A stretch of DNA of 64,000 nt, from positions 12,712,001-12,776,000 of the forward strand of contig NC_087250.1 in the NCBI RefSeq assembly GCF_037042905.1, read 5' to 3'. Positions within the stretch are counted from its first letter, which is position 1. Every line of letters starts with the position of its first letter. This stretch comes from Lytechinus pictus. Its lineage: Eukaryota. A program made the translations under genes and the position numbers. Shown here piece by piece: positions 855 to 61,152 of the stretch. The notes beneath the pieces were generated by a model. It did no database searches, was not told where the DNA came from, and worked only from the letters and a program-made list of their open reading frames with translations.

Positions 855-1011
855 ACCATTTCATAGACAAGCTTGTTCCAGTTGTTTTTCTTTCATTTCA
901 TTAGGATAGGCGAATTTCAGAGCATGGTATACTGTAAGCCATTCTGCAGAATTTGCATAGATTAGGTGACAAGAAACGCAATCAATGAACACTTTACGAA
1001 AGTATTTGTTG

Positions 1012-1218
1012 GTGGTGATTTTTTTTAACCTGATTTCTAAGAAAGCATGAATGCTTGTAAGCAAGCAACCAGAGGACCGACGGCTTAAGGTCCCCTCCGA
1101 AGGACCTGGTACTGAGGATTAATGCATTACCAAAGGGCACTAGCGCACCAAGTGGGAATCGAACCCGGGTCACCGGAATACGAGTCCCCCGCTCTACCGA
1201 CTGAGCTATCGCGCCTCC
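1012..1218 (-). mobile_element. tRNA-derived SINE, family A
   Basis: Minus strand ggaggcgcgatagctcagtcggtagagc (A box) ... gggttcgattccc (B box); (cac)n tail; TSD gtatttgttg at 1002-1011 and 1232-1241. Confidence 0.85.
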
Positions 1219-57170: not shown

Positions 57171-60125
57171 TACTAGTAAAATTTTACTAAATTAATCAAT
57201 ATACATAAAAAAATATTCAACAATAAAAGAGTAGTCCTACATACATACGTGTACACAAGAGAGGCAAAACAATTAACTTTCATCAGTGCCGGAAGAAAAA
57301 ATAATGGAATTTTCAAGTTAAAATTGAATCATTTGGAGGAAAGTGGTCAACTATGCACCTACATGTAATCCTAACTTTGGGGTAATTTTCAAACACTTTA
57401 AAAATACAGTATCGTTATTTTATCACTGAAAGTGAGGTGTTTTCATTTATACAGTCGGCAACTACAACCACATTTTTTTCAGAGTAGATTTCTAATTTTC
57501 TACATTATCATGTGCATTTCGCGTTCTACTGTACATGCCTTAATAAGGAGCAATGTGCAGGGAACAATTATGCTTCTCAAATTTCAAAGCTGTTACACGG
57601 AAATTGATTACAACAAAATTCTGTTTCATGCTACATGTACAAAAAAAAGATATTTTTCTTTTTTATCACTCTATATCTTACACCTTTTGTAAATTTTGAG
57701 CCAGGTGTTAAGATCTCATATAACAAATCACTGATCAAAAGTGCATGATGATATTTATTTTGGTACATGAGTAATTAAAACATTTCCTCAGGCGATCATC
57801 CGCAGGCAACATAACAGCTACCACCTGGAGAAAGAAGTTTGCCAGCTATCCTCAGATGATTTTACTCTTTGACTCATTATGAAATAATGTGTTTGTACAT
57901 AATGCAACTTAGCTGATTAACTCTTAACATGCCATGAACACATATCTGTGCATCCACTGGACTGCCACGAAAACTATTTTGTGCAATGGTCATACAGCTA
58001 TTGTTATGCCTATTGCATTTTGAGGAGTGCATTGCATGCATGGGTGATTCCATTATTCAATTCAGCTTAATATGGTCAAGAGGTTTAACATTATTGTCTC
58101 AAGAGTGATTCCCTGTTTATTATAAATAAAACAATGAAATATAGACTCTTTGAAAAAAAATGGCACTCGCTGATTACAGTGAATATGGCACATTAAGAGT
58201 GAAATGTTTGGGATGAGAGACTTTTCAAAATTACTTTTGAATATTAAAATAATACTTTAATTTGTTGTTCATTCGATTTTTACAATTTCATGATTTCAAT
58301 CCTTCAATTAATTGCAATCTTTGAAACTTGCCGGAATAATGATTTGCATAGTATGGCTCAAGTGATAATGTATCAAGATAAATATAGTCTAGCAAGTGCT
58401 GTCATTTTTATACATGTACATTATATTGTTTTTATACAAAACCTAGGTCATAATCATGTATTGTATATATGTTTTTACTTTGTAAATATGATAATATGAG
58501 TCTTCTGAATTATGTCATGTAATCATTTCTCACAATAAAAACAAAACTGTATAGAATTGAATTGAATATCCTTAGCACACTCACGGTCAGTATTACAAAC
58601 TGTGCCCAGAAAGAGAGAGAGAGAGGGAGAGAGGGGGGGGGGGCACTTACATGTACTTCCAAAATCACTTGTTCTCATTATTGGTACACCTCTTACCAGT
58701 CACAAAAGAAGTTTCCTCCTAAGAAGATTTTGACAAGGAGACTTGACAACCTTTTCTAAATTATAGGTACCAAACACATAACTGAAAATATGCTTTTTAA
58801 TCTTTATACATGTTACGTGCTGTTTGAAGGCAGCCACTCAAGTTGTTTTAAAAAATGAAACAAATGTTTAAAGTTTTAAACAACTTTTTGTTTAAAATAA
58901 CAGCTTTAAACATTGTGCTTAAAATGTAAACAGCATTTTCATGCTAAACACTGTACACTCATTGTAGGCAGTATGGAAATTGATTTTTAAACAGGTCTAC
59001 ATGTCTACCAACTCTGAAAGGTGACTGACAGCCAAGACAGAGGAACAAACTACTTATAAATTTTCCAGAAATAGGAAGGAGCATTTTTAAATTTTATACA
59101 CATATTAAACTGGGCCTCTTTCCCCCTAAAATATGAATATTTCCTAATAGAAACACTCATTTGAAAAGAGTGATATCAGATACTTATCAGTGTCTTCCAA
59201 GAGGAAAGCGATGCATAGCTTGCTTGCTGGTTCACCCAGCATGAAATGACCAATCTACACAAACATTTCCATTTTGCCCCCCAAAATAGCATGATATTTT
59301 TATCAGTTTTCACTTTTTTACACAATTTTGGTGAGGATATCTATAGCTTGGAACCATGGAGAATAGTATTGAAGAAGTATGAAAAATAATTGTACAATCT
59401 CCCTATCGCTTTTTTTTGGGTGACCCCACCCTCTTAGCCCGTGATAAGAATGACATTTATTTCTTAATTTTTTATATACATGTATATTTTTAAATATTTT
59501 TTTAAACTTTCCAACAAATGACAGCGTCTCTAAAAAACAGCAAGGCCAGAGGTTGTTACAGATTGATACAGATTGGCTCTGAATTGTGCCAGCCAAACAT
59601 TTGGAGTTATATTTTATAAACTTAAGGATTAACTATTAAGTAAAACACAAATTCAAAACTTCCAAGCTACATACAAATTGAAAAAAAAATCTAAGGTTAG
59701 AAATCCTGTGTTTGACAGGTAACTTAAAACTGAAGCTGTCCTGAATTAAAAGACATTGTTCAAAATCAAATAAAAACAAACATTTCAAAGTTGACGATGA
59801 ATAAGAATAATTTATCACCATGAATTTTGTCATTCTCTGTAACAGTGTTGTAAATCATAACAGTCTATAACCAATGCATAATGATAAATAGACTTTAGCT
59901 CTGTCAAACAGCAACGTTTCTTCATTAAATCTTGCTTTTCTTAATTGGATTTTGGGCTAATTATTGCCACCCTCCTTTCCGTTCCATCCTCTTTTTAGAC
60001 ACTTGGTCAATTAAGTCATCAAGAGAGATGTTTTAATGTGTCAAACACTGTCTGTATCTTTAGGCTACCAGACAACACATCAAGATAACGCTGTATACTC
60101 ATCCCCATTCACACAACAAATAAAA

Positions 60126-60303
60126 GCGTGTGTATTTGAATTTTGTCAGACGTGTATCAATCAGATATGATTATTTACGTCTGGGACCGACCTTTAACGT
60201 CACCATCCGAAAGACGTGACCAGGGCTCGAACCTCGAACCTCTGCATCAATTTGTAACTTCCCCACATAGCTTGGATTACAGGCGCACGCCACAACGCCC
60301 AGT
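60126..60303 (-). mobile_element. Candidate 7SL(SRP RNA)-headed SINE
   Basis: Minus strand ACTGGGCGTTGTGGCGTGCGCCTGTAATCCAAGCTA (7SL Alu-domain-like), GGTTCGAGCCC B box, core shared with SINE family A, 3' hairpin, ACACAC tail. Confidence 0.65.
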
Positions 60304-61152
60304 TGTACAGGTGCATACATGTACATACATGTATACAACATTGCACTAGTTAACGTTTACCAACCACTACATAAAATCCCTAAATTGCATATTGTTATCA
60401 TTTCAACTAGCACTTATGTCTCGGTGTGTGACCCTACACAGTAAAAAAAAACACATTTCTTAAAAGCCTACACAAGTTGTTTAAACTTTTTTTTATAATT
60501 GTTTAAACTTAAAACAACTTGTTGTTAAAATGACAGGCTTAGAAAATGTGCTATTTTTTGTTTAATGAAACAAACATCAATTTTAAACAACTTGTTAAAA
60601 AAGGAGCCTCAGAAAATACTCATTCAGTGCAATATTAAAGCTTATAGGTAGCAGATTTTGGGAGTAGATGGTAAAAAAAAGTAGCCCCCAAATTTATATT
60701 TAAAAAAAAATCTTTGCCTGGAGCAGTAACTGCAGTTTAATAAATTTCTTTGAGTGTGAAATGGCCCGGAGTGCACCTAATAAAGCGAGGTGAGAAACTA
60801 CAAGTAGGTCATAATAAAAGTTTAACAAGGAAATGAGTCATTCACACACTAGAGGGTATCATTCATTAGCACTGATTACATTTCATAATTGGGACCACCT
60901 TCCCCAAGACAAGTAGCTCTCCCCCCCCCCCCCCCCCCCCTCATCCAATTAAACGATCAATGGGATTAGATGGAGGATCAGAAGGATCATTAATGATCCT
61001 GGAATTGGATTGGGCTCTCACCTTGAATTATTACACCTGGGCCCATTGCATAAAACATTTTTGGTAACTACCATGGCAACTGCTCAGCAGCCAATCAGAA
61101 TCGAGGATTCCATTAAAGATGCCATTGGATGGCAAAGTTACCATAATATTAA

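What the first reader, a model, noticed from the sequence alone, without database searches (positions are those of the whole stretch)
60126..60303. Candidate 7SL/SRP-RNA-derived (Alu-like) SINE in an invertebrate genome
Seen (minus strand): ACTGGGCGTTGTGGCGTGCGCCTGTAATCCAAGCTATGTGGGGAAG, a spacer, GGTTCGAGGTTCGAGCCC (doubled B box), TTTCGGATGGTGACGTTAAAGGTCGGTCC (core shared with the tRNA-SINE at 1012-1218), hairpin CAGACGT..AATCA TATC TGATT..ACGTCTG, then AAATACACAC. The first 36 nt match the human 7SL 5' end as I recall it (GCCGGGCGCGGTGGCGCGTGCCTGTAGTCCCAGCTA) at 28/36 without gaps, including the UGU motif of the SRP9/14-binding Alu domain. Established: 7SL-derived SINEs are rare (Alu/B1 in Euarchontoglires, plus a hagfish family); I know of none described in echinoderms. 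Inference: an independent Alu-like origin, made by grafting the 7SL 5' domain and a B box onto an existing SINE core, possibly exploiting SRP9/14 ribosome targeting. Caveats: one copy in the window and no clear TSD.
Basis: partly seen in the sequence, partly recalled or inferred. Interest (0 to 1): 0.85.

Follow-up and report, generated by a model that had tools for sequence, protein, structure and literature searches.

The report
Sea-urchin SINE with 7SL head
This is one copy of a young, many-hundred-copy mobile element in a sea-urchin genome whose first ~47 bases are copied from the animal's own 7SL (signal recognition particle) RNA, a kind of element so far reported only in some mammals and hagfish.

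Summary

**What the element is.** Window 60128-60303 (minus strand) is one copy of a dispersed retroposon family in a genome that encodes bindin, so the host is an echinoid.

**Copy number.** The 43-nt head pattern is found 716 times at up to 3 mismatches. The 43-nt tail pattern is found 1274 times. Reversed controls gave 0 for both.

**The head.**
- Nucleotides 1-31 are 31/31 identical to one of the genome's seven full-length 7SL genes, and 28/28 (nt 4-31) to the other six.
- Over 49 aligned columns, 40-42 are identical.
- Rfam's Metazoa_SRP model is the best hit (30 bits, E 5.5e-6). No tRNA or 5S model matched.

**The rest of the element.** Nothing beyond about nt 47 resembles 7SL. The body carries:
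- a tRNA-type B box;
- a ~35-nt core shared with a tRNA-Thr-headed SINE in the same window;
- a stable 3' hairpin that shows compensatory changes in a sister tail family;
- an (AC)n tail.

Copies share one 5' end. Some are 5'-truncated and a minority show target-site duplications.

**Comparison with known elements.** It works like hagfish SINE1-1_EBu or Alu, but keeps only the 5' Alu domain. That is the size of the experimentally defined 46-nt minimal Alu domain.

**Not shown.** Pol III transcription, SRP9/14 binding and the LINE partner remain open. Repbase and Dfam could not be checked.

The parts
60256..60303 (-). 7SL-derived head (element nt 1-48), corresponding to the 5' Alu domain of SRP RNA: helix 2 strands ACU/AGU, helix 3, the UGUAAU turn and helix 4
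   Evidence: 31/31 identical to native 7SL gene L037 and 28/28 (nt 4-31) to six others. 42 of 49 aligned columns identical to L037, and 40-41 to L036, L031 and L033. Rfam Metazoa_SRP alignment has high posterior probability over this part.
60290..60299 (-). A-box position of the 7SL internal Pol III promoter (GGCGTTGTGG, element nt 5-14)
   Evidence: Identical to the native urchin 7SL genes. It sits where Kojima 2020 places the human and hagfish 7SL A box (GGCGCGGTGG / GGCGCAGTGG; PMC7245038). Promoter activity was not tested.
60241..60255 (-). Spacer of unknown origin (element nt 49-63)
   Evidence: No significant similarity to the rest of 7SL. Length varies between subfamilies.
60223..60240 (-). 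tRNA-type B box, present here as a 7-nt tandem duplication (GGTTCGA GGTTCGAGCCC, element nt 64-81)
   Evidence: Read directly from the sequence. It fits the GGTTCGANNCC consensus, which I recall rather than take from a tool. 6 of 16 sampled headed copies are doubled and 10 are single.
60184..60218 (-). Core shared with the tRNA-Thr-headed SINE at window 1000-1218 (element nt 86-120)
   Evidence: Local alignment score 29 against a shuffle mean of 15.4 (sd 2.3); 0 of 500 shuffles reach it; 29 identities in 37 columns.
60147..60183 (-). 3' nested stem-loop (element nt 121-157), the candidate recognition element for the partner LINE's reverse transcriptase
   Evidence: MFE -13.0 kcal/mol, z -4.32, 0 of 200 shuffles fold as well. 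The consensus fold has 12 pairs, 2 of them with both-side compensatory changes in a sister tail family that ends in (AAC)n.
60128..60146 (-). 3' terminal sequence and the start of the (AC)n tail (element nt 158-176)
   Evidence: Tail length beyond nt 176 ranges from 0 to 30 nt among 49 solo copies.
60122..60125 (-). First TTTT run after the element (flank), a possible Pol III terminator for this copy
   Evidence: There is no TTTT inside the element. The first one starts at element-relative nt 179.
1000..1218 (-). Separate tRNA-Thr-headed SINE (a different high-copy family) that shares the ~35-nt core
   Evidence: ARAGORN tRNA-Thr at 1143-1214. 2590 first-look candidates in the genome, and 39 other scored matches at 96-99% identity. 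Core alignment.

Best explanation
Window 60128-60303 (minus strand) is one recent insertion of a composite SINE family of a sea-urchin genome.

**Composition.** The first ~47 nt were copied from the host's own 7SL RNA. They most resemble the gene variant on contig C12, which shares the compensatory ACU/AGU form of helix 2. This head was joined to a non-7SL body made of a short spacer, a tRNA-type B box, a ~35-nt core also found in a tRNA-Thr-headed SINE, a stable 3' stem-loop and an (AC)n tail.

**Shown here.**
- The head is native 7SL.
- The family has at least 716 headed copies, many near-identical and some old.
- Copies share a common 5' end and have variable (AC)n tails.
- Some copies are 5'-truncated, and a minority have target-site duplications.
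- The structure of the 3' stem-loop is conserved.

**Inferred mechanism.**
- RNA polymerase III initiates from the 7SL-derived A box plus the downstream B box. It reads through the element, which has no internal T4 run, and stops in flanking T runs.
- The head folds as the SRP Alu 5' domain and may bind SRP9/14. That would bring the RNA to ribosomes where a LINE protein is being made.
- The 3' stem-loop plus the (AC)n tail is recognised by a stringent, non-L1 LINE reverse transcriptase. That enzyme copies the RNA into the genome by target-primed reverse transcription.

The element is therefore an independent 7SL-headed ('SINE1-like') SINE. It is built like hagfish SINE1-1_EBu but keeps only the 5' Alu domain.
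For: **Head identity.**
- 31/31 identical to native 7SL gene L037 and 28/28 to six others. 40-42 of 49 columns identical.
- RF00017 is the best Rfam hit, at 30 bits and E 5.5e-6. In the whole-genome RF00017 search, 7 full genes score 272-283 bits and 18 short matches score 31.9-34.9 bits. The three of those that became loci (L038-L040) hold copies of this family.
- No tRNA call at this copy or at copies in 44 loci.

**Family.**
- 1822 first-look candidates. 40 were scored, giving 48 listed matches, mostly at 98-100% identity.
- Head 43-mer at <=3 mismatches: 716 hits, with at least 100 exact. Tail 43-mer: 1274 hits. Reversed controls 0.
- 37 of 46 solo exact-head copies begin ACT.
- Old decayed copies exist, e.g. 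L053, L056 and L058.

**Retroposition signs.**
- Variable (AC)n tails of 0-30 nt, and 5'-truncated copies L049-L051, L054, L055, L076-L078 and L083.
- Exact anchored TSDs of >=6 nt in 5 of 49 solo copies, against a control mean of 0.5 (max 3). TSDs of >=8 nt in 3 of 49, against 0.08.

**Body.**
- It is not 7SL: 316 of 500 shuffles reach the score.
- The core matches the tRNA-SINE: 0 of 500 shuffles reach the score.

**Tail hairpin.** z -4.32 with 0 of 200 shuffles, and 2 of 12 pairs compensatory.

**Terminator.** No internal TTTT. The first TTTT lies 3 nt after the tail.

**Host.** Bindin family PF02084 scores 236.7 bits.

**Literature precedent for the mechanism.**
- Hagfish SINE1-1_EBu is a chimera of 7SL and an older tRNA-SINE, with an (AAC)n tail and an RTE partner (PMC7245038, parts 1-2 read).
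Against: - No transcription data.
- SRP9/14 binding is untested. Loop L1.2 of the head is 2-4 nt longer than in native 7SL, and the 3' Alu-domain strand is absent.
- Thermodynamic folding of the head or of the whole element is not better than shuffles: z +0.13 for the head and -1.23 for the whole. The native 7SL 5' domains behave the same way.
- No LINE with this tail was found. All examined tail-bearing sites with unrelated upstream sequence lacked long ORFs or shared upstream sequence.
- Most copies lack a clear TSD: 44 of 49 have fewer than 6 exact nt by my strict caller.
- The origin of the B-box module is unresolved.
- Some copies sit in head-to-tail arrays, so part of the copy number comes from DNA-level amplification.
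Confidence: 0.85

Rival explanations
1. It is an ordinary tRNA-derived SINE, and its head resembles 7SL only by chance or convergence on A-box-like sequence.
For: The element carries a canonical tRNA-type B box and a core shared with a tRNA-Thr-headed SINE. Most SINEs are tRNA-derived (PMC7245038).
Against: - The head is 31/31 identical to a native 7SL gene and shares its helix-2 compensatory variant.
- The SRP model is the best Rfam hit and no tRNA model reaches E<=10.
- ARAGORN tRNAs at copies in 44 loci.
- No alternative-headed family with the same B-box/core junction was found: only 6 pattern hits, which appear to be variants or truncations.
Confidence: 0.02
2. It is a satellite-like tandem repeat or a segmentally duplicated sequence that happens to contain a 7SL gene fragment, not a retroposon.
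For: - Head-to-tail arrays exist: C19:10865246-10865950, C2:17634172-17634687, C8:17842740-17843103, and pairs about 190 nt apart in the RF00017 hit list.
- Most copies have no clear TSD.
Against: - 49 of 63 full-length copies examined are solo, with unrelated flanks on many contigs.
- They share a 5' end and have tails of variable length.
- 5'-truncated copies exist.
- TSDs occur above the control rate.
- Head hits are spread over both strands almost equally, 357 and 359.
Confidence: 0.04
3. It is a true 7SL-headed SINE, but the head serves only as a Pol III promoter (A box). The Alu-domain fold and SRP9/14 play no part in its mobilisation.
For: - The 3' strand of the Alu domain is missing and loop L1.2 is enlarged.
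- The head's predicted fold is not more stable than shuffles.
- Stringent LINEs recognise the 3' stem-loop, so ribosome docking may be unnecessary. This last point is my inference.
Against: - The three subfamily head variants I compared by eye differ mainly in the loop and spacer, and each can still form helices 2, 3 and 4.
- The retained length (~47 nt) coincides with the 46-nt minimal Alu domain that associates with SRP9/14 (PMC11760393 abstract).
- An A box alone would need only about 15 nt.
Confidence: 0.3
4. Individual copies, or a master locus, encode a functional small Pol III RNA, analogous to BC200 or 4.5S RNAs derived from SINEs. The dispersed copies would be its retropseudogenes.
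For: - Three copies are 100% identical over 174-178 nt.
- The window copy has a TTTT run right after the tail.
- Copies are embedded in the promoters of three 7SL genes.
Against: - No expression data.
- The family has subfamilies, old decayed copies and LINE-type tails, as expected of a selfish SINE.
- Nothing marks any single locus as conserved.
Confidence: 0.05

Closest known systems
SINE1-1_EBu (hagfish Eptatretus burgeri; Kojima 2020, PMC7245038)
   Same: - A young 7SL-headed SINE born as a chimera of host 7SL sequence and the body of an older tRNA-type SINE.
- Microsatellite tail ((AAC)n there, (AC)n here).
- Evidently dependent on a non-L1, structure-recognising LINE.
- Copy number in the low thousands (2363 there).
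   Different: - The hagfish element keeps 96 nt of the 7SL 5' part plus about 44 nt of the 7SL 3' end, i.e. a complete Alu domain with the 7SL B box. The urchin element keeps only about 47 nt and uses a tRNA-type B box of non-7SL origin.
- The hagfish partner is identified (RTE-2_EBu). Here no partner was found.
- The host is an invertebrate deuterostome.
Alu / FLAM / B1 (Euarchontoglires) and Urop (shrew mole; PMC13023118)
   Same: The 5' end is the 7SL Alu 5' domain with the 7SL A box. The proposed use of SRP9/14 and ribosome docking is the same.
   Different: - All of those carry the ~183-nt central deletion and retain the 7SL 3' end. They end in poly(A) and use L1.
- The urchin element has no detectable 7SL 3' segment and has a stem-loop plus (AC)n tail.
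46-nt minimal 5' Alu domain (Moldovan, Yin & Moran preprint, PMC11760393; abstract only)
   Same: The 7SL-derived part of the urchin SINE (about 47 nt covering helices 2-4) is the same portion and size as the domain reported to associate with SRP9/14 and to be necessary for Alu retrotransposition.
   Different: That is an engineered human construct driven by a Pol II promoter and mobilised by L1. This is a natural Pol III-type element in an echinoid with a different tail.
Tu type II (tree shrew) and GarnAlu (bushbaby) chimeric 7SL+tRNA SINEs
   Same: They combine 7SL-derived and tRNA-SINE-derived modules in one element (as described in PMC7245038).
   Different: Those are fusions of whole pre-existing SINE monomers descended from the single supraprimate 7SL SINE lineage. 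Here a short native 7SL piece replaces the tRNA head.
Sea-urchin MetaSINEs SINE2-1_SP / SINE2-2_SP (Nishihara et al. 2016, PMC4824008)
   Same: They have tRNA(Thr)-like heads followed by a conserved central domain. The window's tRNA-Thr-headed SINE (1000-1218), which shares the ~35-nt core with the 7SL-headed element, fits that description.
   Different: The 7SL-headed element has no tRNA head and shares at most about half of a 66-bp domain. I could not obtain the Meta-domain sequence, so the equation of the core with the Meta-domain is an inference.

Membership tests
SINE1 (7SL RNA-derived SINEs) | 5' head derived from 7SL RNA | tested here: met
   31/31 and 28/28 identity to the seven native 7SL genes; 40-42 of 49 columns identical; RF00017 is the best Rfam hit.
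SINE1 (7SL RNA-derived SINEs) | Short, non-coding, dispersed, high-copy, with a common 5' end, a 3' tail and signs of retroposition | tested here: met
   716 head hits and 1274 tail hits. 37 of 46 copies start ACT. (AC)n tails, 5' truncations, and TSDs above the control rate in a minority.
SINE1 (7SL RNA-derived SINEs) | Central ~183-nt deletion of 7SL with retention of the 7SL 3' end (complete Alu domain), stated to be common to all described 7SL SINEs (PMC13023118) | tested here: not met
   Element nt 47-178 against 7SL nt 32-298: best local score 15, reached by 316 of 500 shuffles. The CM alignment to the model's 3' end is full of non-canonical pairs.
SINE1 (7SL RNA-derived SINEs) | Internal Pol III promoter (A and B boxes) that is transcriptionally active | tested here: inconclusive
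   The A-box position is identical to native 7SL, and a consensus-type B box lies at nt 64-81.
SINE1 (7SL RNA-derived SINEs) | Alu-domain RNA binds SRP9/14 | not testable with these tools
   Only the CM alignment shows helices 2-4 and the UGUAAU turn preserved.
LINE-dependent SINE with a stringent (3'-structure-recognising) partner | 3' end shared with an autonomous LINE of the same genome | tested here: inconclusive
   The conserved, compensated 3' stem-loop supports recognition. No LINE carrying it was found among the sites examined.
tRNA-derived SINE (SINE2) / MetaSINE | tRNA-derived head | tested here: not met
   No ARAGORN call at this copy or at copies in 44 loci. No tRNA family in the Rfam scan at E<=10.
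tRNA-derived SINE (SINE2) / MetaSINE | 66-bp Meta-domain directly after the head | tested here: inconclusive
   About 35 nt are shared with a tRNA-Thr-headed SINE's central region.

The most novel reading that the evidence does not exclude
This is an independent, first invertebrate origin of a 7SL-headed SINE. Unlike every described 7SL SINE, it retains only the ~46-47-nt 5' Alu domain, a natural counterpart of the experimentally defined minimal Alu domain. It is mobilised by a non-L1, stem-loop-recognising LINE. If the head works through SRP9/14, ribosome docking would be a LINE-clade-independent advantage that evolution has found repeatedly across deuterostomes. The 3' half of the Alu domain would then be dispensable in nature.
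Probability: 0.4. Interest if true: 0.8.

Novelty: new variant of a known kind. Interest (0 to 1): 0.72.

Why it matters
**Rarity.** 7SL-derived SINEs include Alu, the best-known SINE, yet independent origins are extremely rare. Papers from 2020 and February 2026 list only supraprimates, hagfish and a shrew mole. An echinoid family would extend the phenomenon outside vertebrates.

**A different architecture.** This family has only the 5' domain, plus a borrowed tRNA-type B box, a shared SINE core and a stem-loop/(AC)n tail. That bears directly on an open question: is the recurrent capture of 7SL explained by SRP9/14-mediated ribosome docking, and how much of the Alu domain does that need? The retained piece coincides with the 46-nt minimal domain defined in human cells.

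**A usable test system.** Sea urchins are experimentally tractable. Near-identical copies suggest recent activity, so the idea can be tested outside mammals and with a non-L1 LINE.

**A practical point.** The human-like head can trip contamination and human-sequence filters, as happened. Repeat classifiers may also label it as Alu.

Tried and rejected
1. **Does the 7SL-derived part extend beyond nt ~47?** Rejected. The local alignment of nt 47-178 to the rest of 7SL is not better than shuffles: 316 of 500 reach the score.

2. **Were the spacer and B box copied from the conserved GGTTCGAGTC element just downstream of the native 7SL genes?** A plain local alignment looked good for L035 and L036 (score 25, 0 of 300 shuffles). 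A fairer control scored only the flanks of all 40 GGTTCGA sites that my filter counted as outside the family; 9 of those 40 were in fact family copies the filter missed. The 7SL-downstream sites (6-8) ranked below ordinary tRNA-like sites (9-16). Not supported.

3. **Is there a tRNA-headed precursor family with the same B-box/core junction?** A pattern with excluded-base codes upstream gave only 6 hits, which appear from the matched strings to be variants or truncations.

4. **LINE partner.**
   - Patterns that require the tail but exclude the core (73 hits) or exclude the loop (13 hits) returned indel variants, 5'-truncated copies and a sister non-autonomous family with an (AAC)n tail.
   - 8.3-kb loci were fetched for six of those sites. 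The three sister-family loci (L059-L061) had no ORF of at least 120 aa, apart from one unrelated 161-aa frame about 7 kb upstream. L063 and L064 proved to be ordinary headed copies.
   - L049 and L050, and L085 and L086, share no LINE-like upstream sequence.

6. **Sequencing-run listing.**
They give no evidence of expression or of relatives.
   - Runs of a second coded organism (B; 2 runs, 1 study) hold all 14 sampled words.

7. **Targeting of Pol III genes.** ARAGORN found one tRNA-like call in 44 SINE-bearing loci, about 1.2 kb from the copy. No support.

8. **Thermodynamic distinctiveness.** None for the head or the whole RNA.

9. **Earlier notes of this scan.** Nothing relevant.

10. **Meta-domain sequence from the supplements of PMC4824008.** No occurrence in the 2 files searched, and one file was not searchable.

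Full report
**Observation**

These are a 46-nt head, a spacer, GGTTCGAGGTTCGAGCCC, the core TTTCGGATGGTGACGTTAAAGGTCGGTCC, a nested hairpin and AAATACACAC. Alignment to other copies shows that the element proper is 176 nt (window 60128-60303). The final GC of the stated interval is flank. The window holds exactly one copy. The surrounding 8 kb shows only short stop-to-stop frames with no evident coding sequence, and no flanking direct repeat.

**Is the head really 7SL?**

At Rfam's gathering thresholds the whole window has no hit. That is expected, because those thresholds are set for full genes. A permissive scan of 59900-60500 puts Metazoa_SRP (RF00017) first, at 30.0 bits and E 5.5e-6. The alignment has high posterior probability over helix 2, helix 3, the UGUAAU turn and helix 4. 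No tRNA or 5S family is among the 10 matches at E<=10. The next hit, mir-1268, lies over the same head stretch.

The decisive test was the genome's own 7SL.
- The assembly is 811.7 Mb in 368 contigs, and the window is C6:12712001-12776000.
- It holds seven full-length 7SL genes at 272-283 bits: three on C10, three on C1 and one on C12.
- The element's nt 1-31 are 31/31 identical to the C12 gene, and nt 4-31 are 28/28 identical to the other six.
- Over nt 1-48, 42 of 49 aligned columns are identical to the C12 gene, and 40-41 to three others tested.
- The element and the C12 gene share ACU...AGU in helix 2, where the other six genes have ACC...GGU. That is a compensated pair, so the donor resembled the C12 variant.
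- ARAGORN finds no tRNA at this copy, nor at any copy in the 44 SINE-bearing loci.

**How far does 7SL extend?**

Only to about nt 47.
- Element nt 47-178 against 7SL nt 32-298 gives a best local score of 15, which 316 of 500 shuffles reach.
- The CM's forced pairing of the spacer with downstream sequence is full of non-canonical pairs.

So the 3' strand of the Alu domain, which the 2026 review of the field says all described 7SL SINEs retain after a ~183-nt central deletion (passages of PMC13023118), is absent here.

**The body**
- Nt 64-81 carry a tRNA-type B box. In this copy it is a 7-nt tandem duplication. Among 16 headed copies sampled from exact-tail sites on C1, 10 have a single B box and 6 a doubled one.
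- An older subfamily, and at least one old copy, are doubled. Which form is ancestral stays open.
- Nt 86-120 match the central region of the tRNA-Thr-headed SINE at window 1000-1218: 29 identities in 37 columns, score 29 against a shuffle mean of 15.4 (sd 2.3), and 0 of 500 shuffles reach it.
- That other SINE is itself a high-copy young family, with 2590 first-look candidates and 39 other scored matches at 96-99% identity.
- Its tRNA-Thr head followed by a conserved centre fits the description of the sea-urchin MetaSINEs SINE2-1_SP and SINE2-2_SP (passages of PMC4824008). I could not obtain the Meta-domain sequence to test this.
- Nt 121-157 form a nested stem-loop of -13.0 kcal/mol (z -4.32; 0 of 200 shuffles fold as well).
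- A sister family of non-autonomous elements ending in (AAC)n carries the same stem-loop with both-side compensatory changes. The pairs are AU to GC in the outer stem and AU to UA in the inner stem, 2 of 12 predicted pairs. This is what one expects of a reverse-transcriptase recognition element.

**It is a family of retroposons**
- The DNA search found 1822 first-look candidates. The 40 scored gave 48 matches, mostly 98-100% identical, and three are 100% identical over 174-178 nt.
- Exact counting by pattern gave 716 matches to the 43-nt head at <=3 mismatches (357 forward and 359 reverse; at least 100 exact; reversed control 0) and 1274 to the 43-nt tail (control 0).
- The surplus of tails is at least partly due to 5'-truncated copies. 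4 of 20 sampled exact-tail sites lack the head, and all four break within a few bases of GTCTTTCGG, as do L054 and L055.
- Of 46 solo copies with an exact head, 37 begin ACT.
- Tails extend as (AC)n for 0-30 nt beyond nt 176.
- With a strict caller (exact, anchored matches), TSDs of >=6 nt occur in 5 of 49 solo copies, against a mean of 0.5 and a maximum of 3 in 200 flank-permuted controls. TSDs of >=8 nt occur in 3 of 49, against 0.08.
- Looser cases are visible by eye, for example L006 and L038. Most copies, including the window's, have none or only 2-5 nt.
- 20 of 46 solo copies have CA as the last two flank bases, against a background of 6.8%. This fits very short duplications at CA-rich targets that merge with the (AC)n tail, or a few extra 5' bases. 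I did not resolve which.
- Old, decayed copies (L053, L056, L058) show that the family also has a long history.
- Some copies lie in head-to-tail arrays.

**Host**

The genome encodes bindin (PF02084, 236.7 bits, E 1.5e-67; 0 of 14 control genomes ring).

**How it most likely works**

Shown:
- the composition;
- the copy number;
- the retroposition footprints;
- the conserved 3' structure;
- the absence of an internal T4 run, with a TTTT 3 nt after this copy's tail.

Inferred:
- Pol III starts at nt 1, using the 7SL A-box position (GGCGTTGTGG, identical to the native genes) and the B box about 50-60 nt downstream.
- The ~47-nt head folds as the SRP Alu 5' domain and may bind SRP9/14, placing the RNA at ribosomes.
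- A stringent LINE reverse transcriptase recognises the stem-loop and (AC)n tail and inserts the copy by target-primed reverse transcription.

Two published precedents make this reasonable.
- Hagfish SINE1-1_EBu arose as a chimera of 7SL and an older tRNA-SINE, and uses an RTE LINE with an (AAC)n tail (PMC7245038, parts 1-2 read).

In the three subfamily variants I compared, the head differs mainly in loop L1.2 and in the spacer, and each can still form helices 2-4. This is my reading, not a formal count. It is consistent with selection on the fold.

Against the structural role:
- The head's predicted fold is no more stable than shuffles, which is also true of the native 5' domains.
- The loop is enlarged.

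**What I could not establish**
- *LINE partner.* Four pattern or fetch strategies found only truncated copies, indel variants and the sister (AAC)n family.
- *Origin of the B-box module.* It is not detectably 7SL. No alternative-headed family shares the junction. The tempting link to the conserved B-box-like element downstream of the native 7SL genes fails a flank-only control.

**Novelty**

Full-text searches found no echinoderm or invertebrate 7SL SINE, and no paper printing a 23-nt stretch of the head. Kojima 2020 calls the hagfish family the first outside Euarchontoglires. Kosushkin et al. 2026 state that none had been reported outside supraprimates and hagfish before their shrew-mole family. 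Repbase, Dfam and SINEBase could not be queried, so the family may be catalogued under another label.

On present evidence this is a new variant of a known kind. It is a 7SL-headed SINE of independent, invertebrate origin, and the only one that retains just the 5' Alu domain.

**Verdict**
- Observation: confirmed.
- Confidence that this is a 7SL-headed SINE family: about 0.85-0.9.
- The SRP9/14 step is plausible but untested.
- Interest: 0.72.

Noticed in passing
L031 877-1045 and 1290-1458; L035 1294-1462; L036 1315-1462 (genome C10:7911947-7920824 region): The three tandem 7SL genes on C10 each carry an older copy of this same SINE (80-90% identical to the window copy), in the same orientation and about 38 bp upstream of the 7SL start. 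It splits a conserved upstream motif (gccctcaata.gacaataaa) from a TATA-like tccttaatttcg that are contiguous in two C1 genes. L031 has a second copy with the same left flank. So a 7SL-derived SINE sits inside 7SL gene promoters. By my rough estimate this is very unlikely by chance, but no general targeting of Pol III genes was seen.
   Followed up: partly
L031-L036, 19-43 nt downstream of the 7SL terminator T-run: Six of the seven native 7SL genes have a B-box-like GGTTCGAGTC, followed by a conserved AGGTGTCTC-like motif and a second T-run, just downstream of the gene. In the C10 genes it forms a perfect T-arm-like hairpin (CCTGG TTCGAGT CCAGG). The C12 gene lacks it. It could be a downstream TFIIIC site or a relic tRNA-like fragment.
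   Followed up: partly
C19:10865246-10865950; C2:17634172-17634687; C8:17842740-17843103; paired RF00017 hits about 190 nt apart on C7, C18, C2 and C4: Head-to-tail arrays of 2-4 SINE units, joined only by the (AC)n tail plus a few bases (e.g. CTTA). The units within one array are more diverged (90-94%) than solo copies.
   Followed up: no
L054, L055, L076, L077, L078, L083: Six 5'-truncated copies all break within about 7 nt of each other, at (AC)GTCTTTCGGATGG, the foot of a small ACGTC...GACGT hairpin at the start of the core. This could be a reverse-transcription stop hot-spot or an independently mobile core+tail unit.
   Followed up: no
L059 7974-8036; L060 268-332 (-); L061 286-350 (-): A sister family of non-autonomous elements has the same 3' stem-loop architecture with compensatory stem changes, and an (AAC)n tail instead of (AC)n. 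In L059 a copy of the 7SL-headed SINE sits immediately after the (AAC)n tail.
   Followed up: partly
5' flanks of 46 solo copies (loci L002-L084): 20 of 46 copies have CA, and 34 of 46 have A, immediately before the element's first base (background CA 6.8%). This could be a target preference, a very short TSD merging with the (AC)n tail, or extra 5' nucleotides.
   Followed up: partly
window 60306-60315 vs 60278-60287: The 5' flank of the window copy (TGCACCTGTA on the minus strand) repeats head nt 17-26 (TGCGCCTGTA) at 9 of 10 positions. It may be chance or a trace of a partial duplication at the 5' junction.
   Followed up: no
window 1000-1218 (-); also tRNA-like B-box sites near window 42690 (-) and 53174 (-): The window holds a young tRNA-Thr-headed SINE with an A-rich tail (2590 first-look candidates genome-wide). 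It also holds at least two further tRNA-like B-box sites that may belong to other SINE families.
   Followed up: partly
window 60262-60307: The head is similar enough to human Alu/7SL to trip the read-laying tool's filter. Contamination or human-read filters may likewise remove this urchin repeat from data sets.
   Followed up: no
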